From positions 3,695 through 67,694 of the forward strand of contig JAOAIU010000024.1 in NCBI GenBank assembly GCA_026414545.1: a DNA stretch of 64,000 nt. Reading direction: 5' to 3'. The DNA is from Candidatus Saccharicenans sp. GTDB taxonomy: Bacteria > Acidobacteriota > Aminicenantia > Aminicenantales > Saccharicenantaceae. Below the pieces are notes generated by a model. The model was not told where the DNA came from. It was given only the letters and a program-made list of their open reading frames with translations, and did not search any database. This document shows, piece after piece, positions 10,271 through 48,928 of the stretch. Numbering within the stretch: position 1 is the stretch's first letter; each line of letters opens with the position of its first letter. The position numbers and the translations under genes were made by a program.

Positions 10271-13120
10271 ATGGCCATGAGAAGAGGTTTCTTTTATCCC
10301 TTTCTGCTGCTGGTGCTCGTACTGATTGTTCTGGGTTTCATAAACATCTCCCGCAAGCTGGCCTGGAAAGAACCATACGATGGCGTTTCCTGGGTGGATG
10401 GTCCCACCGGATTGATTGCCGCCCGTGTGGATGAAGACAGCCCGGCCTATCTTTCCGGGATAAAGCCGGGAGACATCCTCTTCTCCATAAATGACACCCC
10501 GATAAAAAATAGAATAGAGTTCGCCAAAATGCTCTGGCTTATTGACCGCCTCGAGCAGAAAGCGTTATACCAGGTGGGTCGGAGCGGCACCATCCTTTCT
10601 CCGTCTTTCTATCTCACCAAGAAGGGAGTGAGTTCCACCTATATTTACCTGATGCTCCTGGGACTGGCCACCCTGGCCATCAGCCTTATGGTCTTCTTCA
10701 ACACCAAGAGATTATTCACCGGGCCTTATGCCTTTTTTTACCTGGTTTCCTTTTCGCTATATTCCTTTTATGTTTTTTCGGCCACGGGCCAGATGGATTT
10801 CCTGGATAGCCTTTTTTACTGGCTGGACAAGTTGGCCCTTCTGGCCTTTCCCCCGCTCCTGCTTAATTTCTTCTTCATCTTTCCCCAGAAGAAAAGAATA
10901 ATCCACAAGAAGAAACGGGTTGCCCTGTTCTACATTCCGGGCCTGGCCCTCCTGGTAACCAATATCCTGCTGGCCCTTGTCCTGGAATCCAGGTTGAGCG
11001 AAGCCCAGGTCCTGGCTTTTCAGAAAATTCTGGAAAAGCTGGAACTGGCCCATTTTGCCCTTTACAGCCTGCTGGCCCTCCTCCTGATCATCCGCGACCT
11101 CATCAGCAATATCAATCCGTACATAAAGAACCAGCTCAAATGGATTGCCGTTGGCCTGGGCCTTGGTTCTTTACCTTTTGCCGCCTTTTATGTTGTTCCC
11201 TTTCTCCAGGATCGCTTGCCCACCACTCCCGGCCAGTTGAGCGTGCTGCTTCAGAGCTTGATTCCGATAACCCTGGCTTATTCCATCTCCCGGTACCGGC
11301 TGATGGATTTTGAAGTGTTGTTTAAGAAGGGAACCACCTTGGTGATTTCCTTTGCCATGCTGGCCATGGTCTATTTTCTGGTCAGCTCCCAGACCGAACT
11401 CTTTTCCGAAAACCGGTTAAATGCCATCCTTCTGGGGCTGCTGGCCATAATTCTGGGGGCCACCCTGTTCACCCCGCTGTCTGAGCTGGTTCAAACGCTG
11501 GTTGACCGGGTAATCTACAAGCGCAGCTACGAGTACCGCCGGACTCTGCTAATGATTTCAAACGTCCTCAACCGGGAACGCGACCTCAGCCGCCTGAGCA
11601 ACTTCCTGGTAGATACCATTTCAAAGGCTTTGTCCCTCAAGCACTGTGACCTTTTTCTGGCCAGGGAAAATAACCCGACTGAATTTTACCTGCTCCGGTC
11701 TTCTGAACCCGACCTGCCGATCAATTCTCTCTCAATTTCTCTCCCCGAAATGGAACTGTTACAAAAGGCCGAATTTGTCTCGCTCGTCCAGCCGGGAGAA
11801 AATCCACCCGGTTCTGGCCTGTTTGTGCCCCTGCTGGAAAAGGGGCGGGTCCATATCCTGCCGCTGCGCCTGGAAAACAAGGTCATGGGCTTCCTGGCCA
11901 TGAGCCACAAGCTGGACGAGTCCTATCTCTCTGGCGAGGACCGGGAGCTGCTGCGCACCATCTCCACCTCGGTGGCCCTGGCCCTGGAAAACGCTTACCT
12001 GTATAACCAGGAAATAATCCGGTCGCAGGAACTGCAGCGTCTGAAGGATTACAGCGATAACATCATCGAAAGTTTGACGGTCGGGGTGGCGGTCATCGAC
12101 CAGACCGGTCGAGTAATCGGTTGGAACCGGGTGCTGGAAAGGCAATTTGGACTGGCCCGGGACCAGGCTCTTAACCGTCATTTATCTGAGGTCATCGGAA
12201 AATATAATTTCCAGGCCATCTTTCCGCCCGAGACCCAGACCGAGTACCAGCTCCTGAGCGAAATCGGATTGACCACGGCCCGGGGCGAAAAGAAAATCTT
12301 CGACGTGGCCCGTACTCCCCTGTTTGACAACCAGATGAAAGCCTACGGTACCATCATCGTTTTTGAAGACATCACCGAAAAAATCCACCTGCAGCAGCAG
12401 TTGCTGACTTCAGAAAAGCTGGCTTCCATCGGACTGCTGTCAGCCGGAGTGGCCCACGAAATCAACACCCCGCTGACCGGCATTTCCAGCTACGTCCAGA
12501 TGTTGCAGAAGAAGCTGACCGACACTCACTATCTTCAGATCTTGCAGAAGATCGAAGCCCAGACTGAGAGGGTTAACCGCATCATCAAGAACCTGCTGAA
12601 CTTTGCCCGCAACCCGGCCGACGAGTATTATCACCGAGTGGACCTCAAGGAAAGCCTGGAAGAAATCATCTCGCTCATAGATTACCGGCTGAAAAGCCTG
12701 AACATCCAGCTGGAGCTGAACCTGAACCCGGTGGTGATTTACGCCCAGCGGGAAAGGCTGCAGCAGGTCTTCATAAACATCATTCTCAACGCCATGGACG
12801 CCATGCCCGAAGGCGGCAAACTGACCATCGAATGCCAGCAGAAAGAAAAGCTGGCCATGGTCAAGATCACCGACACCGGAACCGGCATCAGGCCGGAACA
12901 CCTGCCGAGAATCTTTGATCCCTTTTTTACCACCAAGGGCCTGGGCAAAGGAACCGGGCTGGGTCTATCCATCAGCTTTGCCATAGTCAAGGAACACGAT
13001 GGGCAAATACTGGTGGACAGTGCCGTCGGCCGGGGCACCACTTTTACCATCATCCTGCCCACCGCCCTGTCAGAAAAGAACCGCCCGAAAATACAACCAC
13101 GGGGAAGTCACCATGAATGA
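10271..13120 (+). CDS. Sensor histidine kinase: TM - periplasmic PDZ - polytopic membrane domain - GAF - PAS - HisKA - HATPase_c
   Basis: 949 aa. PDZ-like SPAYLSGIKPGDILFSINDTPI follows TM1, then about 10 hydrophobic helices. The H-box is GVAHEINTPL and the N/G boxes are NAMDAM, DTGTGI and GTGLGLS. The stop overlaps the start of the downstream response regulator (ATGAATGA). Confidence 0.85.
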   Translation: MAMRRGFFYPFLLLVLVLIVLGFINISRKLAWKEPYDGVSWVDGPTGLIAARVDEDSPAYLSGIKPGDILFSINDTPIKNRIEFAKMLWLIDRLEQKALYQVGRSGTILSPSFYLTKKGVSSTYIYLMLLGLATLAISLMVFFNTKRLFTGPYAFFYLVSFSLYSFYVFSATGQMDFLDSLFYWLDKLALLAFPPLLLNFFFIFPQKKRIIHKKKRVALFYIPGLALLVTNILLALVLESRLSEAQVLAFQKILEKLELAHFALYSLLALLLIIRDLISNINPYIKNQLKWIAVGLGLGSLPFAAFYVVPFLQDRLPTTPGQLSVLLQSLIPITLAYSISRYRLMDFEVLFKKGTTLVISFAMLAMVYFLVSSQTELFSENRLNAILLGLLAIILGATLFTPLSELVQTLVDRVIYKRSYEYRRTLLMISNVLNRERDLSRLSNFLVDTISKALSLKHCDLFLARENNPTEFYLLRSSEPDLPINSLSISLPEMELLQKAEFVSLVQPGENPPGSGLFVPLLEKGRVHILPLRLENKVMGFLAMSHKLDESYLSGEDRELLRTISTSVALALENAYLYNQEIIRSQELQRLKDYSDNIIESLTVGVAVIDQTGRVIGWNRVLERQFGLARDQALNRHLSEVIGKYNFQAIFPPETQTEYQLLSEIGLTTARGEKKIFDVARTPLFDNQMKAYGTIIVFEDITEKIHLQQQLLTSEKLASIGLLSAGVAHEINTPLTGISSYVQMLQKKLTDTHYLQILQKIEAQTERVNRIIKNLLNFARNPADEYYHRVDLKESLEEIISLIDYRLKSLNIQLELNLNPVVIYAQRERLQQVFINIILNAMDAMPEGGKLTIECQQKEKLAMVKITDTGTGIRPEHLPRIFDPFFTTKGLGKGTGLGLSISFAIVKEHDGQILVDSAVGRGTTFTIILPTALSEKNRPKIQPRGSHHE

Positions 13121-14492
13121 TAATGTCTTGATCCACCTGATCGATGATGAACCCATCATCCATGATGTTCTGGGGCAACTCCTGGAATCAGAGGGCTTCC
13201 AGGTTGAGATTTCTGCCTCAGGGGAGGAAGCTCTAAAAAAATTCGAGGAGCAAAAATTCGACCTGATTCTGCTCGACCTGCTAATGCCCGGCCTGGACGG
13301 TCTGGAAGTCTTGAAACAGATCAGGAAAATTGACCCGGAAGCTCTGGTGATCATCATCACCGCTTACGCCTCGGTGGAATCGGCCCTGACCGCCATCAAG
13401 ATGGGAGCCTATGATTACATTCAGAAGCCCTTCAAGAACGACGAATTACTGATGACCATCAGGCGGGCCCTGGAACACCGCCGGCTGCAGGAGGAAAACA
13501 TCAGGCTGCGCCACGAACTGAAAAAGAAGTTCAGCTTCGAGAACATCATCGGCAAGAGCCAGGCTATGATGAATGTCTTCGAACTGATCAAAGCCGCCGC
13601 CCCCACTCGCTCCACCATCCTGATTCAGGGAGAAAGCGGCACCGGCAAGGAACTGGTGGCCCGGGCCATTCACCTGAACTCCGACCGGGCCCGCCATCCC
13701 TTCGTGGTGGTCAACAGCGGCTCGTTGCCCCCGGACCTGCTGGAAAGCCACCTCTTCGGCCATGTCAAAGGTGCTTTTACCGGCGCGGTCACCGACAAGA
13801 AAGGTCTGTTCGAGGCGGCCGACCGGGGCACCATCTTCTTCGACGAAATCTCTTCTATCAGCCTGGAAACCCAGGTCAAATTGCTCCGGGTCATGCAGGA
13901 CAAAGAATTCATGCGACTGGGCGGAACCAGAACCATCAAGGTCGACGTCCGCATCATCGCCGCCACCAATACCGACCTGGAGGAACTGATCGAGCAGAAG
14001 GCTTTCCGCAAGGACCTGTTCTACCGTCTGAACGTCATTAAAATCGAACTGCCACCGCTCCGGGCCAGGAAAGAAGACATCCCGCTGCTGGTCAAGCATT
14101 TCATCGATCTTTATAACGCCGAGAACCAGAAACAGGTGGAGGGGGTCAGCGAGGACGTCATGGAAATCCTGATGGATTACGACTGGCCCGGTAATGTCCG
14201 GGAACTGGAAAACGTACTGGAAAGGGCCGTGGTGCTCTGCAAGTCCAGGGTCATCACCCGCGATGCCCTGCCGCCCTTCCTGCTGAGCGGGAAAAAAATC
14301 ATGTTCGAAGAGCTGGACAATGCCAGCCTGGACCTTAAAGAAAAGACGGTTGAATTCCAGAAAAAATTGATCCTGACCGCCCTGGAAAAAGCCGGTGGCG
14401 TTCAGAAAAAGGCGGCCCAGCTTCTGGGATTGAAGCCAACGACGCTCAACGAAATGATCAAACGCCTGAAAATAAACACCAGGCTTATATAG
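13113..14492 (+). CDS. Sigma54-dependent response regulator (NtrC/AtoC family bacterial enhancer-binding protein)
   Basis: REC domain (DLILLDLLMPGLDG), AAA+ sigma54-interaction domain with Walker A GESGTGKE and the GAFTGA loop (VKGAFTGAV), and a C-terminal Fis-type HTH (AAQLLGLKPTTLNEMIKRL). I take the start at ATG 13113; the track's longer 12999 start overlaps the kinase. Confidence 0.9.
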   Translation: MNDNVLIHLIDDEPIIHDVLGQLLESEGFQVEISASGEEALKKFEEQKFDLILLDLLMPGLDGLEVLKQIRKIDPEALVIIITAYASVESALTAIKMGAYDYIQKPFKNDELLMTIRRALEHRRLQEENIRLRHELKKKFSFENIIGKSQAMMNVFELIKAAAPTRSTILIQGESGTGKELVARAIHLNSDRARHPFVVVNSGSLPPDLLESHLFGHVKGAFTGAVTDKKGLFEAADRGTIFFDEISSISLETQVKLLRVMQDKEFMRLGGTRTIKVDVRIIAATNTDLEELIEQKAFRKDLFYRLNVIKIELPPLRARKEDIPLLVKHFIDLYNAENQKQVEGVSEDVMEILMDYDWPGNVRELENVLERAVVLCKSRVITRDALPPFLLSGKKIMFEELDNASLDLKEKTVEFQKKLILTALEKAGGVQKKAAQLLGLKPTTLNEMIKRLKINTRLI

Positions 14493-37455: not shown

Positions 37456-38403
37456 ATGAAAGCCAACAAACTCTATCAGGCAGCAGAAAAAGCCATCTTC
37501 CAATCCCTGAAACTCAAACCCGGTGAGAGTTTTCTCCTGGTCACCGATAAACAGAAAATGGAAATAGCGGAAGCCCTGGCCTTTTATGCCAAGAAGGCCG
37601 GAGCGGAAACCACCACCTACCTGATGACTGAAACCCTGCGACCCATCACCGAACCCACCAAATTGTTCAAGCTGCTGACGGAAAAGGCAGATGTCATCAC
37701 CTACCTCCTGGATGCCCGGATTCAGGAAAAGCCATTCCGCGGCTTCATGGTCAGCCAGGGGATGAAGCTCAGCCGCATCTGCATGATGCCCGGGATAACC
37801 GTGGACATGATGGAAAGGCTGGTCAACATCGATTTCACCAGGATGAACGAGTTCACCAAGAAGGTCATCAGGGCGATGAAAGACGCCGACCGGGTGATCA
37901 TCGAAAATGAGGCTGGGACCAACATCAGCTTCAGTGTCAAGGGACGGGAGTGGCACAACGATAACGGCGACATCGGTAAAAAGGGCAAGCACGGCAACCT
38001 GCCGGCCGGGGAATGCTACACCTGCCCGGTGGAAGAAACCTTCACCGGAAAGCTGGTCATCAGCCTGATCGACGACAAGCTGGGCCACGGCGAGATGGAG
38101 TTCAAGGAAGGCCGGCTGGTGCGCTGGAAAGGCCAGGGCATCGAAGCCATTGTGAAGAATATCGGCTCCGACCAGACCGGGTTTATCATCGGTGAGTTTG
38201 GCATCGGCACCAACCCCGGCGCCCGCATCTGTCCCAACATGCTGGAAGCAGAAAAGGCCTTCGGTACGGTCCATTTCGCCATAGGGGATTCTTACGGCCT
38301 CGGGAAAAACAAGAGCAAGCACCATTATGATGCCCTGGTGGATAAGGTAACCATCATTGCCAAGGGAAAGTACATCGCCAAGAACGGAAAATTCCTGATC
38401 TAG
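37456..38403 (+). CDS. Aminopeptidase, M29 (AmpS/PepS)-like (tentative)
   Basis: 315 aa. The layout LKLKPGESFLLVTD... / GNLPAGECYTCPVE / GEFGIGTNP / VHFAIGDS resembles thermophilic-metalloprotease-family aminopeptidases. It lies downstream of the OPT transporter. Confidence 0.5.
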   Translation: MKANKLYQAAEKAIFQSLKLKPGESFLLVTDKQKMEIAEALAFYAKKAGAETTTYLMTETLRPITEPTKLFKLLTEKADVITYLLDARIQEKPFRGFMVSQGMKLSRICMMPGITVDMMERLVNIDFTRMNEFTKKVIRAMKDADRVIIENEAGTNISFSVKGREWHNDNGDIGKKGKHGNLPAGECYTCPVEETFTGKLVISLIDDKLGHGEMEFKEGRLVRWKGQGIEAIVKNIGSDQTGFIIGEFGIGTNPGARICPNMLEAEKAFGTVHFAIGDSYGLGKNKSKHHYDALVDKVTIIAKGKYIAKNGKFLI

Positions 38404-39082
38404 CGTACGGCCAGAAAGGAAAAAACTTAACTTATCCGTTGAGGTCAGAGGGTGGAGTTTCTTCCCGGCAGGCTCGGGTCAGGCGCGTTTCTGCAGGGCC
38501 GGATGTGAAAAAAAATTCGTTAAGCCGCTAAGACTGATAGCTTGGCCTTGCCTCTCTCATCAAGGGCGGTTTAACTTTTCTGGCTATAGCGTTCCGGGCT
38601 ATTCCGGATAAAATTGATTCAGCTTTTTCTGACCGCCTCTGTCGCCTTCCGGCAGCCTGCCCAAAAAAGCCTATCCCTGTTCAATTGTCACCAAAACCAC
38701 GAGCTCGCAGTCATTAAGAGAAGGTTTTGACCACTGGCATTAAATTCACGATTGTGTTCGGCAGGTAAAATCCTGTTGTCATTCCCGGCGACGGCAGTTA
38801 ACGACTTTTGACTTCACGGGCCACAAGACGTGAAAAACCGTGCTTCTTTCCAATCAGGAGTAAAGGTGACCGGCTGGCTTCATTATCTTCAGACCTCGAC
38901 AAAACAATCGGTCTCGAAACAATCCTCTCTTACCGATAGACATAATACAAGAATCCCGCCCAAAACCTAGAAGGGTTCAAGGCTCATAACCCGAAGCACA
39001 CTACTTTCTTCAGTGAGAAAATCCTATTATATTATGCGTCTTTGATAGAGACGCTAACAATGCCGGGTCAGGTCAAAATGGC

Positions 39083-39097
39083 TGGCACGCCACTTGC
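39083..39097 (+). promoter_or_regulatory. Sigma54 (RpoN) -24/-12 promoter TGGCAC-N5-TTGC
   Basis: TGGCAC at 39083-39088, GCCAC at 39089-39093, TTGC at 39094-39097, so the GG/GC spacing is exactly canonical. RBS AAAGGAGG (39112-39119) and the ATG at 39125 follow immediately. Confidence 0.75.
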
Positions 39098-39124
39098 TCT
39101 TTAAGCAGGCGAAAGGAGGTTAAA

Positions 39125-39349
39125 ATGAAAAAGGCATTAGCCGTTACCATGACCACAATTATTCTTTTCTCCACACTTTTGCTTATTCCCCTGGCCAGCC
39201 AGGAAGTGAACCCGGCCGATTCCTGCTGGAATAACTGGGAGAGATGCCGGGCCCGGGCCCTGCAGTCCGACTTCGGTACGATAAGAACCACCCTGGCCCT
39301 GACCCTGTGCGACATCGCCCTGGGCAAGTGTTTGCTGAACGCCGTCTGA
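39125..39349 (+). CDS. Secreted twin-CX6C mini-protein, paralog 1 (74 aa precursor)
   Basis: Strong RBS and signal peptide MKKALAVTMTTIILFSTLLLIPLAS. The mature part is about 48 aa with Cys34/41/62/69. It is colinear with the next ORF, with all four Cys at identical positions and shared ERCxARAL and LxLCD blocks. Confidence 0.6.
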   Translation: MKKALAVTMTTIILFSTLLLIPLASQEVNPADSCWNNWERCRARALQSDFGTIRTTLALTLCDIALGKCLLNAV

Positions 39350-39366
39350 TTAAACAAGGAGGACCC

Positions 39367-39600
39367 GTGAAAAGAAAACTGGCTCTGGCACTTGCCATTC
39401 TGATCGGCCTCTCTATCTTCCTCAGCTCACCTTCTAACTCCCGGGCAACCGAAAAACAAGATATCTGCCTTTTAATCTTTGAGAGATGCGTGGCCCGGGC
39501 TCTGCTGGCCGACACCAGTACTCTTTCCACCTGTAATGCTCTCCAGCTCTGCGACAACCAAAGGCTCGCCTGCTATATTCTGATGATGATAATGATCTGA
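39367..39600 (+). CDS. Secreted twin-CX6C mini-protein, paralog 2 (77 aa precursor, GTG start)
   Basis: RBS AAGGAGG lies 5 nt before the GTG at 39367. The signal peptide is (M)KRKLALALAILIGLSIFLSSPSNS. It has Cys34/41/62/69 plus an extra Cys56 and a hydrophobic tail YILMMIMI. The track shows it only inside the longer 39244..39600 frame. Confidence 0.55.
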   Translation: MKRKLALALAILIGLSIFLSSPSNSRATEKQDICLLIFERCVARALLADTSTLSTCNALQLCDNQRLACYILMMIMI

Positions 39601-39614
39601 ACAGGCGAAAAAAA

Positions 39615-39648
39615 GGGGCTCCGGCCAACAGGGTCAGAGCCCCTTTTT
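39615..39648 (+). terminator. Intra-operon rho-independent terminator/attenuator after the two peptide genes
   Basis: Stem GGGGCTC (39615-39621) / GAGCCCC (39637-39643) with a 15-nt loop, flanked by an A-run upstream and TTTTT (39644-39648) downstream. Confidence 0.6.
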
Positions 39649-39673
39649 GCAAACTTAGAGAAGGAGGATTAAG

Positions 39674-40681
39674 ATGACTAAGACAAAAGGACAAACCGGG
39701 CTCCTGGACAGATTAATTCGGTTGCTCCTTCTGACTTTTTTAATAATCACTCCACATTCTGCACAGGGGCAGCAGCTAAAGATCCGGACAGCCAAAGAGA
39801 TTCCGCTCGCCGGAGCCAAGGATCGGCCTTTCTTCTTCAAGCCGGTAACCATGCAATTCTCTCCAGCTGGACTCCTGATTTCAGAATCCGGAGAAAACTG
39901 CCTGAAGCTGGTCGGAACCGATGGCCGACTGAAATTGACTATCGGCAAGCAGGGGCCAGGACCTGAGGAATTCGATTCCCCGATGGGCCTGGACCTTTTC
40001 GAAAACAGGATCTATGTGGCCGATTCTTTCAATCGCCAGGTCAAAATCTTCAATCTGGAGGGCAAGCTCCTGGGCAGTTTCAGAACCGACATAATACCTG
40101 TTCACCTGGTGGTGCTGGCCGCGGACAGGATCATCGTTTCCAACCGCCCCAACCCGTTGACTGGCCAAGAATCCATTCTTTATTGTTATGATTCCCGGGG
40201 AACGAAGAAATGGCAAGCGGTTAACCCTGTTCCTTCACCCGATTCTGTTTATTTCAGCTTGATCAACGAAGTCTTCCTGAAAAAAGACCCAAACGGAAAC
40301 GTGTTCCTGATTCACAGATACAACGACCCTCAGATCCTGAAAATTGATGCCGAGGGAAAGATAACCGGGAAAATTAAGCTGGATGAGTCCTATCCCCTTA
40401 ACCGTGTCGAGATCCCTCTCAAAAACGGAAAGAAACAAATCATCATAATCTGCTGGAATGTGGCCCATCACGGGGATAAGTTTTACCTCCAGGTACCGGA
40501 TAAAGATAGACGGGGCGACTTTGTCCCGGGAAAAGAAGTCTTCGTTATCGATAGCAATGGCCAGGTCGTCGAAAAAATAAGGTTTCCCCAGTCCGTTCGT
40601 CTCCTGGCCACCGACGGCTCAACCTTCTACATTATTAACACGGAAGATGAACTCTATGCCTACGGGGTGGACCAGGAATGA
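39674..40681 (+). CDS. Exported NHL-repeat six-bladed beta-propeller protein
   Basis: Signal-like N-terminus (LLDRLIRLLLLTFLIITPHSAQG). NHL-type repeat units are present, e.g. GKQGPGPEEFDSPMGLDLFENRIYVADSFNRQVKIFNLEGKLLGSF. RBS AAGGAGG. Confidence 0.7.
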   Translation: MTKTKGQTGLLDRLIRLLLLTFLIITPHSAQGQQLKIRTAKEIPLAGAKDRPFFFKPVTMQFSPAGLLISESGENCLKLVGTDGRLKLTIGKQGPGPEEFDSPMGLDLFENRIYVADSFNRQVKIFNLEGKLLGSFRTDIIPVHLVVLAADRIIVSNRPNPLTGQESILYCYDSRGTKKWQAVNPVPSPDSVYFSLINEVFLKKDPNGNVFLIHRYNDPQILKIDAEGKITGKIKLDESYPLNRVEIPLKNGKKQIIIICWNVAHHGDKFYLQVPDKDRRGDFVPGKEVFVIDSNGQVVEKIRFPQSVRLLATDGSTFYIINTEDELYAYGVDQE

Positions 40682-41181
40682 AGAAAACGGCTCTTATTTT
40701 CCCGGCTCTTGTTCTTATGCTCATTACTTTTGGGCCTGAAGTCCTTCTGCCTGCAGTCGGCCTCCAGACCCAAGGGCCCGCTATCTGCTCCTCGCTCGAA
40801 GAAATCGCCGGCTACCGGGAACAGCCCCTGATCCTGGTGTTCATCTCCCTGGCCTGCCACGTCTGCTGGGAAGAGCTCTTTGAGATGAAAGATTTCGTAG
40901 AAAAGATGGCTCTGCCCATCAATCTCGTCGGAGTTTCGACCGAGAGCCGGGAGCAGCTGGAAAATTTCGTCCGCCGCTATTCCTTCAGCTATCCGATAAT
41001 CGAAGACAGGAACAAGACCTTATTCAGGCGATTCCGGGTCAGGCTCGAACCGTTTGTCGTTATCCTAGATTCAAAGGGCGAAGTCTTTCACCTGGATGAC
41101 CCCATCCTCGATTTCGAGGCAAGGCGAGACCTGAACAAGAAGAAAATCCTGGAGCTGGTCGAGAAAAAAGACTGGCCTTAA
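40678..41181 (+). CDS. Exported TlpA/ResA-like thioredoxin-fold thiol:disulfide oxidoreductase (CHVC active site)
   Basis: Signal peptide MKKTALIFPALVLMLITFG. PLILVFISLACHVCWEEL is a Trx-fold CxxC motif in the usual beta1-alpha1 position, and FSYPIIED...FRV...PFVVILD fits the redoxin family. ATGA overlap with the NHL gene implies translational coupling. Confidence 0.7.
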   Translation: MKKTALIFPALVLMLITFGPEVLLPAVGLQTQGPAICSSLEEIAGYREQPLILVFISLACHVCWEELFEMKDFVEKMALPINLVGVSTESREQLENFVRRYSFSYPIIEDRNKTLFRRFRVRLEPFVVILDSKGEVFHLDDPILDFEARRDLNKKKILELVEKKDWP

Positions 41182-41400: not shown

Positions 41401-42390
41401 ATGGGCAAATTTGACCTGAAAGTCCTCCTTCCCTACTACCAGGAGGTGGCCGTCCTGAAATATGGCGGGACCCTGGACTTCGACCGTCTGGAAAGATCCA
41501 TGGAACCGGTCAGGCTGGGGCAGGAAGAATTTTCCTACCAGCACCTGGAGATGCTGAAGCGGGACAACCTTTTCCCGGCCTGGTGGAAATTGCCGGAGTT
41601 AACCAGGCCAGAACTCGAAGCCCTGAAAGATGTTTTCCGGAACCCTCAGCCCGGGGACCAGAACCTGGTTCAGAAGCTGTTCGATATCTTTAAGAATATA
41701 GAAATCCTGTCCTGTCTGCTGCGGGTCATCTGCCCTCAGCATTACGGGATTTACAGCGCCCCGGTGGAGAACCTGCTATCGATCAAGGCCGAGACTCCGG
41801 TCAAAAAATACCTGGTTTACCTGGAAAATCTGGCCGAACTCCAGGAAGAATATGGCCTGGAGCGGATAGCCGATGTGGACATGGCTCTGTTTGCCCTTTG
41901 CTGCCTTCTGGCCGAAGGTTATATCCGGCAGAACCCTGACTATCGCCAGATCTATCTTGACTACCTGGAACAACCCAACCTGATCAAGAGAATCTCAGCC
42001 CGCAACGCCCTCAGAAACATCCGGCAGGAAAATATTTACTACCTGGACCTGGCTGAGTCCTTCCTGGAAACTGACCCGGAAATCGCCGGCATTCTGGCTG
42101 GCAAGGAACTGGAATGCCTGGTCAACGACTTATGGGAAAATGAAAAAAAACGGGCAGGTTACAAACCCTATAAAACTTCGAACATGCCGGAGAAACTCGA
42201 GGAGCTGGCCTTCAGGAAGGTAATCGGCGACCAGGAAAAAGAAGACCTGCAAGAATGGTGGAATATCAGGAATGATTGTGTCCACCTCAACCTGTCAGAG
42301 GCCAGCGAGCCAGAGCTAAAGGTATTACGGGACCGGGTCAGCGAAATGATCCTTGGCCTGGCCGACCTTAAGGCAAGAATTAAGACCTGA
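41401..42390 (+). CDS. Hypothetical protein with C-terminal HEPN-like Rx4H motif
   Basis: 329 aa, no signal peptide. WWNIRNDCVHLN (R290-H295, nt 42268-42285) lies in a predicted helical C-terminal region about 35 aa from the end, as in many HEPN/Abi RNase domains. I did not recognise the N-terminal two-thirds. Confidence 0.4.
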   Translation: MGKFDLKVLLPYYQEVAVLKYGGTLDFDRLERSMEPVRLGQEEFSYQHLEMLKRDNLFPAWWKLPELTRPELEALKDVFRNPQPGDQNLVQKLFDIFKNIEILSCLLRVICPQHYGIYSAPVENLLSIKAETPVKKYLVYLENLAELQEEYGLERIADVDMALFALCCLLAEGYIRQNPDYRQIYLDYLEQPNLIKRISARNALRNIRQENIYYLDLAESFLETDPEIAGILAGKELECLVNDLWENEKKRAGYKPYKTSNMPEKLEELAFRKVIGDQEKEDLQEWWNIRNDCVHLNLSEASEPELKVLRDRVSEMILGLADLKARIKT

Positions 42391-42720: not shown

Positions 42721-44190
42721 ATGAAGACTCTAAAGAGGCGTGATTTTCTGAAAATTTCGGCCGGCAGCGGCGCGGCCGCGGTCGTGGCCCCGGCCCTGGC
42801 CAAATCCAGTCCTAAACCGGGCCAGAGTCGGCAGTGGACTTCTCCCCTGGCCAAAGGCCTGGTCAGTCCGGGCGGCCGAACCAGGGTCAAGGTGGCTAAA
42901 ATTTATATGGGTCTGCCCGAACCCCACTGGCCAAAGCCCTCGCTCAATCTGCAGGAAGAAATCAAAGCCTATGAAAATCAGTTCAGCCTGATGAAGGATG
43001 AATTCTCTGATGTCGATTTTGTGGTCAACATCCTGGCCAGCAAACCCGAGGATGTGCTGCAGCAGGCCGATAGGCTAAAGGAAACTGACGGCATCCTGGC
43101 CATCCACCTGACCATCTGGATAACTCCCATCCTGGAAACCATCCTGAAATTTAAGAAGCCCACAGTTCTTTTTGCCGCCCCTTATTCCGGGCACGAATGG
43201 ACCTACTTCGGCGCTCTGATGAAACAGGAAAAGGGTGAATTGCTGGACTGCTTCCTCAGCAGCGACCGGCGGGAGCTGGCCAGGGCAGTTCGTCCCTTCC
43301 GGGCTATTCATCATCTCCGGGAAGCCAGGATCCTGAACCTGACCACTGCACCCTTTGAAGACTATGCCGGGAAGGTCAGAGAAAAATTCGGCACAGAAAT
43401 AAAGAGAATTTCCCTGGACCGGGTGGAAAAGATCTTCGCGGCCATTGGTGAGACTGAGGCCCGCCGCGAGGCTGACCTCTGGTACAGGGGTGCAGAAAGA
43501 GTGGTCGAACCATCGCCGGAAGAAGTCTATAAATCGGCCCGCCTGGCCCTGGCCTTTGAAAAGCTGGTGGAAGAAGAACAGGCCACCGCTCTGACCATCG
43601 ACTGTTACGGCACCATGTGGGATAAGACCATAAAACTGCCGGCCTATCCCTGCCTGGGTTTTAGCCGGCTCAACAACCGCGGCCTCGGGGGGATCTGCGA
43701 ATCCGACCTGCGCTCGGCCATAACCCATATCATCCTTCAAGGATTATCCGGAAAACCAGGCTTTATCAGCGACCCGACGGTTGACGAAGCCAGAGATTAT
43801 ATACTCCTGGCCCACTGCATGGGCACGGTCAACATGGACGGCCCGGGAAAGCCTGGCCACCCGTACAAGCTCAGAACCGTCATGGAGCGGCAGGAAGGCG
43901 TGGTTCCTCAGGTGGAAATGCGCCTCGGGGAAAAGGTGACCCAGGCCATCATCGTGGGCACCGAGCAAATTCTTTATTTCACCGGTGAAATCGTGGACAC
44001 ACCGGTCAGACTCGAGGATGACCGTGGCTGCCGCACCAAGATTGCGGTGAGGGTTGACGGCAGCCTGGAAAAACTCTGGCAGAACTGGTCTCATGGCCTG
44101 CACCGGGTAACCTGTTACGGAAATCTGGCCAGAGAACTGCGGATGCTGTCCCGGTTCAAGAAACTGGAACTTGTAAACGAGGCGATATAA
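42721..44190 (+). CDS. Tat-signal protein; body tentatively resembles the FucI/AraA sugar-isomerase-like superfamily
   Basis: MKTLKRRDFLKISAGSGAAAVVAPALA is a clear twin-arginine signal. The C-terminal ...SHGLHRVTCYGNLARELRMLSRFKKLELV resembles the HH..x..GD...L..LA..LGI end of fucose/arabinose-isomerase-like proteins. The function call is weak. Confidence 0.4.
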   Translation: MKTLKRRDFLKISAGSGAAAVVAPALAKSSPKPGQSRQWTSPLAKGLVSPGGRTRVKVAKIYMGLPEPHWPKPSLNLQEEIKAYENQFSLMKDEFSDVDFVVNILASKPEDVLQQADRLKETDGILAIHLTIWITPILETILKFKKPTVLFAAPYSGHEWTYFGALMKQEKGELLDCFLSSDRRELARAVRPFRAIHHLREARILNLTTAPFEDYAGKVREKFGTEIKRISLDRVEKIFAAIGETEARREADLWYRGAERVVEPSPEEVYKSARLALAFEKLVEEEQATALTIDCYGTMWDKTIKLPAYPCLGFSRLNNRGLGGICESDLRSAITHIILQGLSGKPGFISDPTVDEARDYILLAHCMGTVNMDGPGKPGHPYKLRTVMERQEGVVPQVEMRLGEKVTQAIIVGTEQILYFTGEIVDTPVRLEDDRGCRTKIAVRVDGSLEKLWQNWSHGLHRVTCYGNLARELRMLSRFKKLELVNEAI

Positions 44191-47078: not shown

Positions 47079-47585
47079 TCTTATAAGCTGAGGCCTGGAG
47101 CCAGGAAAAGCAGGCAGCCAGAAGCCGGGGCTAGTGCTGAGGATAAAACCAGAAGGGCCCACTTCTTTGTTTGGTCGCCCTGGCCACGGCCCCGGGAATG
47201 ACAGGTGAAAATGAAGCTTGTTCCAGGAGAAGACCACCTGCCAGGCAGGACAGTAGTCCGGATGATGAGAATTTAGCCTGAGCTTAATTGCCAACAGAAA
47301 ATAATTATCAATGACCTGAATATCAAAGCCTGAGGGTTTTCTCCCGCAGCCCGCCCGGAGCCGAATATTTCCAGGGACCCTTTTCTGTCAGCTGACCAGT
47401 TCCAGGGCAGGCTTTGTTCAACAAGGTCTGTTCTGCGTCACGAACCAAACGAACCGTTTGTTCTTATGACAGGACCAGAACCGGTAACCCACACTTTTTC
47501 TTCAATTAATCGCCGGAATAAATTAGAATGAATATAGTCAAAAAAACTAAAACCGGGTCCAGCCTGACCCACAAGGAGAAAAAAA

Positions 47586-48556: not shown

Positions 48557-48928
48557 ATGAAAATAAAAGGTCTATTAGCACTAAGCCTGCTTCTGGCTGT
48601 CTTGAGCCTGCCCCTTCTGGCCAACAAGTCGGCCGCTTCGATCGAAGCCCCAGCCACAGTCAAGGCTGGGGAAGAAGCCACCGTCATCATCCACGTCACT
48701 CATCGCGGCAATAGTAGCCTGCATCATACCAAACGGCTGGTGGTCCTGGCCAACGGCAAGGAAATAGCTCGCTGGGATTTTTCTTCGAGCCATAGGCCCG
48801 AAGCAGAAAACTTCAGCCGCGAAGTAAAGCTTAAAATCGAGGCGGAAACTGAAATCGTGGCCGAAGCCACCTGCAATCTTCATGGCAGCGCCGGCCCGGC
48901 TTCGGTCAAGATTAAGTTAGCTGATTGA
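48557..48928 (+). CDS. Exported desulfoferrodoxin/neelaredoxin Fe-binding-domain-like (SOR-like) protein
   Basis: Signal peptide MKIKGLLALSLLLAVLSLPLLA. His-rich strands (IIHVTHRGNSSLHH) and the C-terminal CNLHG match the Cys-Asn-x-His-Gly iron-ligand motif of superoxide reductases. Confidence 0.5.
   Translation: MKIKGLLALSLLLAVLSLPLLANKSAASIEAPATVKAGEEATVIIHVTHRGNSSLHHTKRLVVLANGKEIARWDFSSSHRPEAENFSREVKLKIEAETEIVAEATCNLHGSAGPASVKIKLAD

What the first reader, a model, noticed from the sequence alone, without database searches (positions are those of the whole stretch)
39125..39600. Tandem paralogous precursors with cysteines at identical positions (C34, C41, C62, C69): predicted disulfide-stapled helical hairpins
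The two products are:
- P1: MKKALAVTMTTIILFSTLLLIPLASQEVNPADSCWNNWERCRARALQSDFGTIRTTLALTLCDIALGKCLLNAV
- P2: (M)KRKLALALAILIGLSIFLSSPSNSRATEKQDICLLIFERCVARALLADTSTLSTCNALQLCDNQRLACYILMMIMI

They align without gaps. They share D32, C34, E39-R40-C41, A43-R44-A45-L46, D49, L61-C62-D63 and C69.

Two CX6C pairs separated by 20 residues place each Cys pair one heptad apart on the same helix face. That is the geometry of a helix-loop-helix stapled by two disulfides, conceptually like twin-CX9C/CX3C hairpins. I do not know of a CX6C version as a bacterial secreted family.

P2 additionally has a fifth Cys and a very hydrophobic tail (YILMMIMI), which hints at membrane insertion or a different partner. 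Conservation of the coding pattern between the paralogs argues that these are real genes despite their size.
Basis: seen in the sequence. Interest (0 to 1): 0.75.

Follow-up and report, generated by a model that had tools for sequence, protein, structure and literature searches.

The report
Secreted twin-CX6C helical hairpin peptides
Two adjacent small genes encode secreted peptides of about 47 residues, predicted to fold into two-helix hairpins clamped by two disulfide bonds. They belong to an undescribed family seen only in Aminicenantes-type bacteria. The family gene always follows a sigma-54 promoter and precedes a beta-propeller gene and a thioredoxin-like gene, and it shares its cysteine scaffold, but not its sugar modification, with the glycocin antibiotics.

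Summary
P1 (39125-39349) and P2 (39367-39600, GTG start) are real paralogous genes. The C-x6-C-x20-C-x6-C pattern is present in 68 of 71 collected relatives, and the other three are truncated or frameshifted.

AlphaFold2 predicts a signal-peptide helix followed by a helix-turn-helix hairpin, with pLDDT 94-97 over the hairpin of P1.

New context found here:
- A P1-type gene sits directly upstream of an NHL beta-propeller gene and a TlpA/ResA-like CxxC thioredoxin gene in 32 of 33 evaluable species loci. In 25 of 38 loci an ABC-2 exporter follows; it is lost in the window's clade.
- A sigma-54 promoter (TGGCACGCCACTTGCT, 39083-39098) lies 42 nt before the P1 start codon and is positionally conserved across the family.
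- A GC-rich stem-loop follows the peptide gene or genes in every locus examined.
- Mature P1 is much more conserved than its partner proteins. P2 evolves fast and keeps a hydrophobic tail.

This family has no glycosyltransferase, no double-glycine leader and no detectable sequence similarity to them, so it is not a glycocin.

The function is unproven. I favour a periplasmic role, with a bacteriocin-like role as the main rival.

The parts
39013..39054 (+). Candidate upstream activator sites for a sigma-54 enhancer-binding protein: GTGAGA (39013-39018) and the palindrome GCGTCT-N7-AGACGC (39036-39054)
   Evidence: GTGAGAA and CGTCT blocks are conserved in the alignment of upstream regions. Related inverted repeats (TGTGAC..GTCACA) lie at similar distances in distant loci, including the promoter of an orphan P2-type gene in L011. 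Their function is inferred.
39083..39098 (+). Sigma-54 (-24/-12) promoter TGGCACGCCACTTGCT, 42 nt before the P1 ATG
   Evidence: It is the only match to TGGCAYN5TTGCW in the 64-kb window on either strand; 0.16 are expected by chance. The same motif lies at -36 to -43 in 23 of 31 related loci by a strict pattern. The remaining loci have one-base variants or a start codon that my script set too far upstream. Orphan P2-type genes carry it as well.
39125..39349 (+). P1 precursor, 74 aa: Sec-type signal peptide (about residues 1-25) plus a (CX6C)2 hairpin, Cys 34/41/62/69
39367..39600 (+). P2 precursor, 77 aa, GTG start: signal peptide plus a (CX6C)2 hairpin with the hydrophobic C-terminal extension YILMMIMI; an extra Cys at position 56
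39615..39648 (+). GC-rich stem-loop (GGGGCTC...GAGCCCC) followed by TTTTT: a terminator or attenuator between the peptide genes and the propeller gene
   Evidence: Folding energy is -28.9 kcal/mol. A strong stem-loop sits at the same place in all 33 related loci folded, despite different sequences. The simple terminator scan missed it because its loop exceeds 8 nt.
39674..40681 (+). Exported six-bladed NHL/DUF5128 beta-propeller, 335 aa, with no conserved cysteines
   Evidence: Pfam PF17170, E = 2e-6. PDB sequence hits to TRIM NHL domains, NHLRC2 and SOQ1. It directly follows the peptide gene in 32 of 33 evaluable loci. Cys conservation is at most 70%.
40678..41181 (+). Exported TlpA/ResA/StoA-like thioredoxin-fold protein, 167 aa, active site C60-H-V-C63 with cis-Pro125; its start overlaps the propeller stop by 4 nt
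   Evidence: Pfam AhpC-TSA, Thioredoxin_8 and Redoxin. NCBIfam StoA and ResA. PDB hits YkuV, StoA, ResA and MPT53. CxxC and the cis-Pro are conserved.

Best explanation
P1 and P2 are genuine products of a lineage-specific cassette controlled by sigma-54. Steps 1 and 5 are shown; steps 2 to 4 are inferred.

1. Shown: a -24/-12 promoter drives a short P1-P2 transcript. A stem-loop after P2 is well placed to let only part of the transcription continue into the translationally coupled propeller and thioredoxin genes. If so, the peptides are made in excess over the handling machinery.

2. Inferred from sequence: both peptides are exported by Sec and cut by signal peptidase I a few residues before Cys34. 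This leaves mini-proteins of about 47-50 aa.

3. Predicted: each folds into a helix-turn-helix hairpin clamped by two nested disulfides, C34-C69 and C41-C62. Helix 1 is polar and helix 2 is hydrophobic.

4. Inferred: the co-transcribed CxxC thioredoxin-fold protein forms or proofreads these disulfides. The peptide cysteines are the only conserved thiols in the exported cassette proteins apart from the CxxC itself. The cysteine-free NHL propeller is the hairpin's binding platform. In most lineages an ABC-2 pump completes the module, possibly clearing hairpin from the inner membrane.

5. Shown: P1 is the constant, strongly constrained component. P2 is a fast-evolving paralogue with a hydrophobic tail. 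P2 can be encoded elsewhere in the genome but has the same promoter type. It probably pairs with P1 through the hydrophobic helix-2 face.

For the end function I favour an endogenous periplasmic or envelope role, with the hairpin acting as a specific protein ligand or client of the thioredoxin-NHL pair under stress control. I rate this more likely than an exported antibiotic.
For: The genes are real and the family is conserved, with P1 mature dN/dS of 0.15. The hairpin is predicted with high confidence. Profile hits of the N-terminus are only to secretion signal peptides in PDB constructs, and A-x-A-type cleavage sites lie 3-8 residues before Cys1 across the family.

Cassette linkage: 32 of 33 evaluable species loci, in at least four unrelated genomic neighbourhoods. 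CxxC and the cis-Pro are conserved, and the propeller has no conserved Cys. The sigma-54 promoter is positionally conserved. The stem-loop is conserved.

Evidence for an endogenous role:
- Mature P1 is 84% identical where the propeller is 37% and the thioredoxin 47% identical (L039), and the pattern repeats across loci.
- There is one cassette copy per locus, and its divergence tracks that of the partner genes.
- No mobile-element genes were called next to the cassette in the annotated loci.
- The organisms are diderm, since the loci encode SurA/PpiD-like and outer-membrane barrel proteins, yet the cassette contains no outer-membrane export route.
- The peptides are neutral to anionic, mean net charge -1.3.
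- The ABC-2 pump is dispensable in the window's clade.
Against: There is no experimental evidence for expression, cleavage, disulfides or binding. AlphaFold output gave secondary structure only, so Cys-Cys distances were not measured. TlpA/ResA-type proteins are usually reductases, so the cysteines might be kept reduced instead. The set of features (a small hairpin, a thioredoxin, a DrrA/lantibiotic-protection-type ABC ATPase, peptide excess over machinery, a fast-evolving second peptide) is also what a bacteriocin locus looks like. The endogenous function is not specified beyond ligand or client. How common the cassette is among complete Aminicenantes genomes was not measured.
Confidence: 0.5

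Rival explanations
1. The pair is a two-peptide, disulfide-stapled bacteriocin. It would be a non-glycosylated, Sec-dependent counterpart of glycocins or of gallocin-A-type class IIb bacteriocins from a diderm phylum. The thioredoxin would fold it, the ABC-2 pump and/or the propeller would protect the producer, and the hairpins would attack the membrane or a receptor of competitors.
For: The scaffold is the same (CX6C)2 two-helix scaffold as sublancin and glycocin F, whose clusters also encode thioredoxin-like proteins and ABC transporters (PMC6405829, PMC12457901). Gallocin A is two tandem hairpin peptides, each with a disulfide, and needs the thioredoxin-domain protein BlpT (PMC10100652). 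The best NCBIfam matches of the ABC ATPase are DrrA, GldA and the lantibiotic-protection subfamily. A stem-loop after the structural genes puts the peptide in excess. P2 evolves fast: mature identity falls to 33-38% where P1 keeps 77-89%, and mature dN/dS is about 0.77 while the signal peptide is conserved. Helix 2 and the tails are hydrophobic.
Against: P1 is far more conserved than its accessory proteins and appears vertically inherited across many species. There is no double-glycine leader, no peptidase-containing ABC transporter, no glycosyltransferase and no recognisable immunity gene. Sec export reaches only the periplasm of a diderm cell. The presumed immunity pump is absent from the window's clade. 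The peptides are not cationic. The P2 dN/dS rests on six closely related pairs.
Confidence: 0.3
2. The four cysteines work in the reduced state. The hairpin would be a periplasmic thiol-based metal or cofactor binder, or a small redox shuttle. The TlpA-like protein would keep it reduced, as TlpA, ResA and CcmG do for their clients. The ABC-2 pump would supply or remove the ligand, and the propeller would act as scaffold, as in the thioredoxin-NHL proteins SOQ1 and NHLRC2.
For: The closest characterised relatives of the thioredoxin-fold protein are the thiol-disulfide oxidoreductases StoA and ResA and the thioredoxin-like protein YkuV; that StoA, ResA, TlpA and CcmG act as reductases is from my own knowledge. 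Thioredoxin-like plus NHL is a recurring redox module: in SOQ1 the thioredoxin-like domain passes electrons to a second redox-active domain (bioRxiv 10.1101/2024.11.01.621559; PDB hits). The organisms are described as anaerobic subsurface bacteria (my own knowledge, not tested here). The facing Cys pairs could bind a soft metal.
Against: The AlphaFold hairpin and the (CX6C)2 precedent point to structural disulfides. No His or Met metal ligands are conserved in the peptide or the propeller. The ATPase does not resemble CcmA or NosF more than generic ABC-2 ATPases. One P2-type gene sits next to a VKOR-thioredoxin fusion, a protein type I know as a disulfide-forming oxidase.
Confidence: 0.15
3. 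The ORFs are chance open frames, or the cysteine pattern is coincidental.
For: The genes are short. Overlapping antisense ORFs of 94 and 124 aa exist.
Against: There are 49 diverged clusters with four invariant Cys, purifying selection, conserved ribosome-binding site, promoter and synteny, and a confident structure prediction.
Confidence: 0.01

Closest known systems
Glycocins (sublancin 168, glycocin F, pallidocin, thermoglycocin)
   Same: The core is a (C-x6-C)...(C-x6-C) pattern on two antiparallel helices joined by two nested disulfides: 2MIJ has Cys 7/14/29/36 and 2KUY has Cys 5/12/21/28 (PMC6405829). Thioredoxin-family genes are dedicated to the peptide in the same cluster, and an ABC transporter is nearby. 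The peptides are small (37-50 aa).
   Different: Glycocins are defined by S- or O-glycosylation by a cluster-encoded glycosyltransferase, and most have a double-glycine-type leader cut by a peptidase-containing ABC transporter (thermoglycocin's ThgA lacks that motif). They occur in Firmicutes. Here there is no glycosyltransferase, a Sec signal peptide, a 20-residue (not 8-14) inter-Cys loop, an NHL propeller, a sigma-54 promoter and a diderm host. No sequence similarity was detected.
Gallocin A-type class IIb two-peptide bacteriocins (GllA1/GllA2; brochocin C, thermophilin 13, ABP-118)
   Same: Two adjacent paralogous peptides are each predicted to be an alpha-helical hairpin held by an intramolecular disulfide. 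They have few charges. A thioredoxin-domain surface protein (BlpT) is needed for activity (PMC10100652).
   Different: Gallocin A peptides have one disulfide, not two. They have a double-glycine leader and BlpAB export, a hairpin-like immunity peptide and quorum-sensing control. The two peptides are not a constant-plus-variable pair.
Plant alpha-hairpinins / vicilin-buried peptides (CX3C)2 and mitochondrial twin-CX9C / twin-CX3C proteins
   Same: Helix-loop-helix stapled by two disulfides between matching Cys pairs. These are the top small Foldseek matches (Luffin P1 6o3s, VBP-1 6wql, Jug r 2 peptides; all non-significant).
   Different: The Cys spacing differs (3 or 9, not 6). They are eukaryotic, use different oxidation machinery (Mia40/Erv1 or the ER), and show no homology.
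Thioredoxin-like plus NHL beta-propeller modules (human NHLRC2, plant SOQ1)
   Same: A TlpA-type thioredoxin-fold domain is paired with a six-bladed NHL propeller in an oxidising or extracytoplasmic-type compartment. Both window proteins hit these structures by sequence: the propeller hits NHLRC2 at 6e-11 and SOQ1 at 0.018, and the thioredoxin hits SOQ1 at 0.027.
   Different: Here the two are separate, translationally coupled genes in the order NHL then thioredoxin. The similarity is no closer than to generic NHL or ResA proteins. Neither NHLRC2 nor SOQ1 is known to act on a mini-protein of this kind.

Membership tests
Glycocins | Two helices carrying (C-x6-C)2, joined by two nested disulfides | tested here: met
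   The pattern is invariant in the family and helices are predicted. The spacing is identical to 2MIJ and 2KUY. The disulfides themselves are not shown.
Glycocins | Cluster-encoded glycosyltransferase (SunS/GccA type) | tested here: not met
   There is no glycosyltransferase domain in the window cassette or among the called genes of the annotated loci L001-L015. The gene order in 38 further loci leaves no room for one between the peptide gene and the ABC genes.
Glycocins | Double-glycine-type leader removed by a peptidase-containing ABC transporter | tested here: not met
   The N-termini are K/R-rich, then hydrophobic, then A-x-A: Sec-type signals. The ABC ATPase is a stand-alone 236-239-aa subunit of the DrrA/ABC-2 type with a separate 245-aa permease and no C39 domain.
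Glycocins | Glycosylated Ser/Thr/Cys in the loop or tail | not testable with these tools
   Needs mass spectrometry. The Gly-Cys-Gly-Gly/Ser loop motif of sublancin-type glycocins (PMC6405829) is absent. The loop consensus here is S-D-x-G-x-I-K/R-T-T.
Glycocins | Detectable sequence relationship to known members | tested here: not met
   BLASTP E = 0.28-0.46 on short Cys-anchored stretches. The family profile finds no PDB glycocin.
Class IIb two-peptide bacteriocins (gallocin A subgroup) | Two adjacent structural genes for complementary peptides | tested here: inconclusive
   P1 and P2 are adjacent in the window's clade only (L016-L022). Elsewhere the P2-type gene is distant or not seen in the locus.
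Class IIb two-peptide bacteriocins (gallocin A subgroup) | Dedicated immunity gene and antimicrobial activity | not testable with these tools
   No recognisable immunity gene. The ABC-2 pump is absent from the window. Activity needs an assay.
Sec-dependent secreted proteins | Tripartite signal peptide with a signal peptidase I site | tested here: met
   By inspection in all members. AlphaFold predicts an N-terminal helix at 3-19, separated from the hairpin by a low-confidence linker. Profile positions 1-20 match secretion signals of PDB constructs. No SignalP was available, and cleavage is inferred.
Sigma-54-dependent promoters | GG at -24 and GC at -12 in TGGCAC-N5-TTGC, at a fixed distance from the gene | tested here: met
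Sigma-54-dependent promoters | Cognate enhancer-binding protein | tested here: inconclusive
   The only one in the window is an NtrC-type response regulator at 12987-14492, 26 kb away. None lies within 5-6 kb of the cassette in any of the other loci.
NHLRC2/SOQ1-type thioredoxin-NHL proteins | Thioredoxin-like and NHL domains fused in one chain, thioredoxin first | tested here: not met
   They are separate genes in the order NHL then thioredoxin, overlapping by 4 nt. Sequence similarity is weak.
Twin-CX9C / twin-CX3C (CHCH) proteins | Cys spacing of 9 or 3 on each helix | tested here: not met
   The spacing is 6 in all members.

The most novel reading that the evidence does not exclude
The cassette is a class-wide, sigma-54-controlled periplasmic system. 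In it, a (CX6C)2 mini-protein is the dedicated natural client or ligand of a split thioredoxin-NHL module. That would be the first defined small-protein partner for this widespread but poorly understood module type (NHLRC2, SOQ1). A constant subunit (P1) and a rapidly diversifying, tail-bearing subunit (P2) would form a redox-gated heterodimer.
Probability: 0.2. Interest if true: 0.8.

Novelty: new variant of a known kind. Interest (0 to 1): 0.6.

Why it matters
The finding defines an uncatalogued protein family: it has no Pfam, NCBIfam or PDB match, and no paper in the held library mentioned the DUF5128 propeller family. It comes with its full genetic context in a phylum known to me only from metagenome-assembled genomes.

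It shows that the (CX6C)2 two-disulfide hairpin, so far known only from glycosylated Gram-positive bacteriocins, also exists as a Sec-exported, unglycosylated scaffold in a diderm lineage, with a different set of helper proteins.

The tight linkage of a tiny four-Cys protein to a thioredoxin-NHL pair gives a testable bacterial model for what such pairs recognise. If the bacteriocin reading is right instead, these are compact, stable peptide antibiotics from an untapped phylum.

The constant-P1 and variable-P2 asymmetry and the conserved sigma-54 control are concrete starting points for experiments.

Tried and rejected
- Pfam and NCBIfam scans of P1 and P2 found no family. My first attempt used a wrong P2 start, 39368 instead of 39367.
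- Rfam on 38300-39800 gave only sub-threshold noise, so there is no known riboswitch or sRNA in the long upstream spacer.
- The simple terminator scan missed the stem-loop because of its loop-length limit. Folding found it.
- Foldseek against PDB gave nothing significant. A profile search of PDB sequences hit only signal peptides.
- The search for related loci with the diverse peptide or propeller alignments failed because no conserved 7-10-mer was available. The thioredoxin alignment worked.
- The second word-index protein search returned few new members. A cluster look-up gave no organism names for distant members, so the taxonomic range beyond named Aminicenantes-type genomes is unverified.
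- RiPP maturation by a radical SAM enzyme is rejected. The HemN-like gene near L004 is specific to that context.
- Heme (Ccm) or Nos-type maturation is rejected. There is no CXXCH motif, and the ATPase is no closer to CcmA or NosF than to generic ABC-2 ATPases.
- A third paralogue or pseudogene in the window was not found.
- A nearby enhancer-binding protein was not found next to any cassette.
- Literature searches for DUF5128, NVEALA and BF3164 gave nothing relevant.
Full report
**1. The observation**

The two ORFs exist as described.
- P1 is 39125-39349 (+): ATG start, 74 aa, AGGAGG upstream.
- P2 starts at the GTG at 39367, not at the ATG at 39244 that the ORF lister picks, and ends at 39600 (77 aa). 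It has its own AAGGAGG, 17 nt after the P1 stop.

The two align without gaps over 71 residues. BLASTP gives 41% identity over 63 aa, E = 1e-12. Neither protein matches any Pfam or NCBIfam model.

**2. They are real genes of a real family**

A profile of the pair found 23 proteins among 5.8 billion. A profile of those found 49 clusters among 1.84 billion cluster representatives, one per 50%-identity cluster.
- Of 71 collected sequences, 68 carry C-x6-C-x(19-21)-C-x6-C, and 66 have exactly 20 residues between the pairs. The three exceptions are truncated or frameshifted.
- In a 55-sequence alignment with mean column identity 30%, the four cysteines are the only invariant columns.
- P1 orthologues show purifying selection. 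NG86 dN/dS is 0.15 for the mature part and 0.37 for the signal peptide, over 26 pairs.
- Every hit that carries an organism name is an Aminicenantes or Candidatus Saccharicenans genome. A few are labelled Clostridiales or Eubacteriales by submitters but are syntenic with the others. Organism names could not be obtained for the most distant members.

**3. Anatomy of the peptides**

All members start with a K/R-rich stretch, then a hydrophobic stretch, then an A-x-A-type site 3-8 residues before the first Cys. The family profile's only PDB matches are the secretion signal peptides left on recombinant Fab chains. Sec export and signal peptidase I cleavage are therefore inferred, giving mature peptides with a median length of 47 aa.

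AlphaFold2 predictions:

| Peptide | Signal helix | Hairpin helices | Turn | pLDDT over hairpin |
|---|---|---|---|---|
| P1 | 3-19 | 30-47 and 52-72 | 48-51 | 94-97 |
| P2 | 2-19 | 33-47 and 52-76 | 48-51 | 84-91 |

In P2 the hydrophobic tail continues helix 2.

The sums 34+69 and 41+62 are equal. The two Cys pairs therefore face each other in an antiparallel hairpin centred near G51, which predicts nested disulfides C34-C69 and C41-C62. I could not read coordinates, so this is an inference from register and precedent.

Helix 1 is polar (mean GRAVY -0.75) and helix 2 hydrophobic (+1.17). Net charge averages -1.3, range -5 to +2. The consensus core is C-[YW]-[DN]-x-[WYH]-E-R-C-R-x-x-A-L-x-x-D-x-G-x-I-[KR]-T-T-L-x-L-T-x-C-D-x-A-L-G-x-C.

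P2's fifth Cys (C56) is missing from its nearest orthologues but recurs in two other P2 lineages. The hydrophobic C-terminal extension defines a P2-type subfamily, with tails of 6-18 residues.

**4. Context: a conserved cassette**

In the window the peptide genes are followed by two genes:
- an exported six-bladed NHL/DUF5128 beta-propeller (39674-40681);
- overlapping it by 4 nt, an exported TlpA/ResA/StoA-like thioredoxin-fold protein (40678-41181) with a C-H-V-C active site and the cis-Pro.

The same peptide-propeller-thioredoxin order occurs in at least four unrelated genomic neighbourhoods.

I then anchored a search on the thioredoxin gene in one genome per GTDB species. This gave 38 loci.
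- In 33 of them enough upstream sequence is present to judge. In 32 of those a P1-type gene lies directly upstream of the propeller. L040 is the one exception.
- In 25 of the 38 the cassette continues with a 245-aa polytopic membrane protein with no Pfam match, and a stand-alone ABC ATPase. The ATPase's best NCBIfam matches are DrrA, GldA and the lantibiotic-protection subfamily.
- These two genes are absent from the window and its clade.

The propeller has no conserved cysteine (at most 70%), whereas the thioredoxin CxxC is conserved. Besides the CxxC, the four peptide cysteines are therefore the only conserved thiols among the exported cassette proteins. That makes the peptide the obvious client of the thioredoxin.

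**5. Regulation**

The 720-nt spacer upstream of P1 contains TGGCACGCCACTTGCT at 39083-39098. This is a textbook sigma-54 -24/-12 promoter, ending 27 nt before the ATG.
- It is the only match in the window on either strand.
- It is invariant in the alignment of close relatives.
- It lies at -36 to -43 in 23 of 31 loci by a strict pattern. The remaining eight have one-base variants or a start codon that my script set too far upstream.
- Orphan P2-type genes in L011, L012 and L014 carry the same kind of element about 40 nt upstream, which suggests one regulon.
- Inverted repeats lie 50-110 nt further upstream. In the window these are GTGAGA and GCGTCT-N7-AGACGC. Elsewhere, including L011, they are TGTGAC..GTCACA. 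They are candidate activator sites; this is inferred.
- No activator gene is adjacent. The only one in the window is an NtrC-type response regulator at 12987-14492.

Directly after the last peptide gene, every locus examined has a strong GC-rich stem-loop. In the window it is 39615-39648, followed by TTTTT. The design therefore yields a short, abundant peptide transcript with partial read-through into the machinery genes.

**6. Evolutionary asymmetry**

Mature P1 is much more conserved than its partners:

| Comparison with window | Mature P1 | Propeller | Thioredoxin |
|---|---|---|---|
| L039 | 84% | 37% | 47% |
| L023 | 80% | 38% | 51% |

In the same genome pairs, mature P2 falls to 33-38% identity while mature P1 stays at 77-89%. 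Among the closest P2 orthologues, mature dN/dS is about 0.77 against 0.09 for the signal peptide. That estimate rests on only six pairs and is noisy.

P2-type genes are adjacent to P1 only in the window's clade (L016-L022). In other lineages they sit elsewhere:
- before a CN-hydrolase gene in L012 and L014;
- divergent from a VKOR-thioredoxin fusion gene in L011.

One assembly, CAYQZX01, has the cassette on one contig (L023) and an orphan P2-type gene on another (L015). The window has no third copy or remnant.

**7. Most likely mechanism**

- Shown: the genes, the family, the invariant cysteines, the cassette linkage, the promoter and the stem-loop.
- Predicted: the hairpin fold.
- Inferred: Sec export and cleavage; oxidative folding into a (CX6C)2 hairpin by the co-transcribed thioredoxin-fold protein; the cysteine-free NHL propeller as binding platform; an ABC-2 pump that removes hairpin from the inner membrane where present; pairing of P1 and P2 through the hydrophobic helix-2 face.

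For the end function I weigh two readings.

A bacteriocin-like role is suggested by:
- the scaffold;
- the thioredoxin;
- the ABC-2 ATPase type;
- the peptide excess;
- the fast-evolving P2.

An endogenous periplasmic role is favoured by:
- the extreme conservation and apparently vertical inheritance of P1;
- Sec export into the periplasm of a diderm cell with no outer-membrane route in the cassette;
- the lack of a double-glycine leader, a peptidase-containing ABC transporter, or an immunity gene;
- the neutral to anionic charge;
- the loss of the pump in the window's clade.

I put roughly 0.5 on the endogenous client/ligand model, 0.3 on the bacteriocin model and 0.15 on a reduced-thiol (metal, cofactor or redox-shuttle) model.

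**8. Comparison with what is known**

Glycocins are exactly this scaffold.
- Sublancin (PDB 2MIJ) has Cys 7, 14, 22, 29 and 36. Glycocin F (2KUY) has Cys 5, 12, 21, 28 and 43.
- Both have two helices nested by two disulfides.
- Their clusters encode thioredoxin-like oxidoreductases, an ABC transporter and a glycosyltransferase (PMC6405829; PMC12457901).

The present family fails the defining glycocin features. It has no glycosyltransferase, no double-glycine-type leader and no peptidase-containing ABC transporter, and no sequence similarity. It is a structural analogue, not a member.

Other comparisons:
- Gallocin A (PMC10100652) is the closest two-peptide analogue: tandem hairpins with one disulfide each, dependent on a thioredoxin-domain protein.
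- Plant alpha-hairpinins were the top small Foldseek hits, though non-significant. Together with twin-CX9C proteins they are fold analogues with different spacing.
- The thioredoxin-NHL pairing recalls NHLRC2 and SOQ1. Here the two are separate genes in the opposite order, and the similarity is generic.

**9. Verdict**

It is an undescribed, lineage-restricted (CX6C)2 hairpin family, embedded in a conserved cassette of three to five genes controlled by sigma-54. It is a new variant of a known kind, the disulfide-stapled helical-hairpin peptides. Its function is still open.

Noticed in passing
window 12987-14492 (+): An NtrC-type sigma-54 enhancer-binding response regulator (Response_reg, Sigma54_activat and HTH_8 domains). 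It is the only activator of this kind in the window and lies 26 kb from the only strong sigma-54 promoter match.
   Followed up: partly
window 38755-38815 (+): A conserved block in the long M29-P1 spacer: GGTAAAATCcTgTTGTCA..N17..TAACGA. It looks like a sigma-70 -35/-10 pair and is shared by six related loci about 300 nt upstream of the sigma-54 promoter. Its purpose is unknown; it could be a second promoter, an IHF or activator site, or a small transcript. Rfam found nothing there.
   Followed up: partly
window 41401-42390 (+) and 42721-44190 (+): Two conserved proteins of unknown function: one of 329 aa with a weak DUF4145 hit, and one of 489 aa with a TAT signal. They follow the cassette in the window, L001, L009/L010 and L012, and lie between the cassette and the orphan P2-type gene in L012. 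They are absent from the L004 context, so they are probably not part of the core cassette.
   Followed up: partly
window 47079-47585: A 500-nt gene-free spacer between the M14 carboxypeptidase and CN-hydrolase genes. At the equivalent place before the CN-hydrolase gene, L014/L015 (after the M14 carboxypeptidase gene) and L012/L013 (after the 490-aa TAT-signal protein gene) carry an orphan P2-type gene with its own sigma-54-type promoter. The window has no remnant there, so P2 appears to have been relocated next to P1 in this clade.
   Followed up: yes
L011 4477-6255: An 84-aa P2-type gene (P0063) is divergently adjacent to a 411-aa VKOR-Thioredoxin_4 fusion, a protein type I know as a disulfide-forming oxidase. 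This is a second, independent link between the family and disulfide chemistry.
   Followed up: no
window P2 residue 56; L020 3708-3932; P0016: An odd fifth cysteine, six residues before Cys62, recurs in three separate P2 lineages but is absent from their nearest relatives. It could make an intermolecular disulfide (a P2 dimer or a mixed disulfide).
   Followed up: partly
window 48557-48928 (+): A desulfoferrodoxin-like protein (PF01880) with an apparent N-terminal signal peptide. This would be an exported superoxide-reductase-like protein, which is unusual, since to my knowledge these are normally cytoplasmic.
   Followed up: no
L040 525-752 and 6378-6620: This is the only evaluable cassette without a P1-type gene upstream of the propeller, and its propeller has a lipoprotein-like signal. 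An 80-aa ORF 4 kb downstream has a C-x6-C-x21-C-x6-C pattern, an otherwise unrelated sequence, and a TGGCAC-N5-TTGC motif at -86.
   Followed up: no
window 39073-39357 (-) and 39183-39557 (-): Antisense ORFs of 94 and 124 aa overlap P1 and P2. They have no support and are best regarded as chance frames opposite conserved coding sequence.
   Followed up: yes
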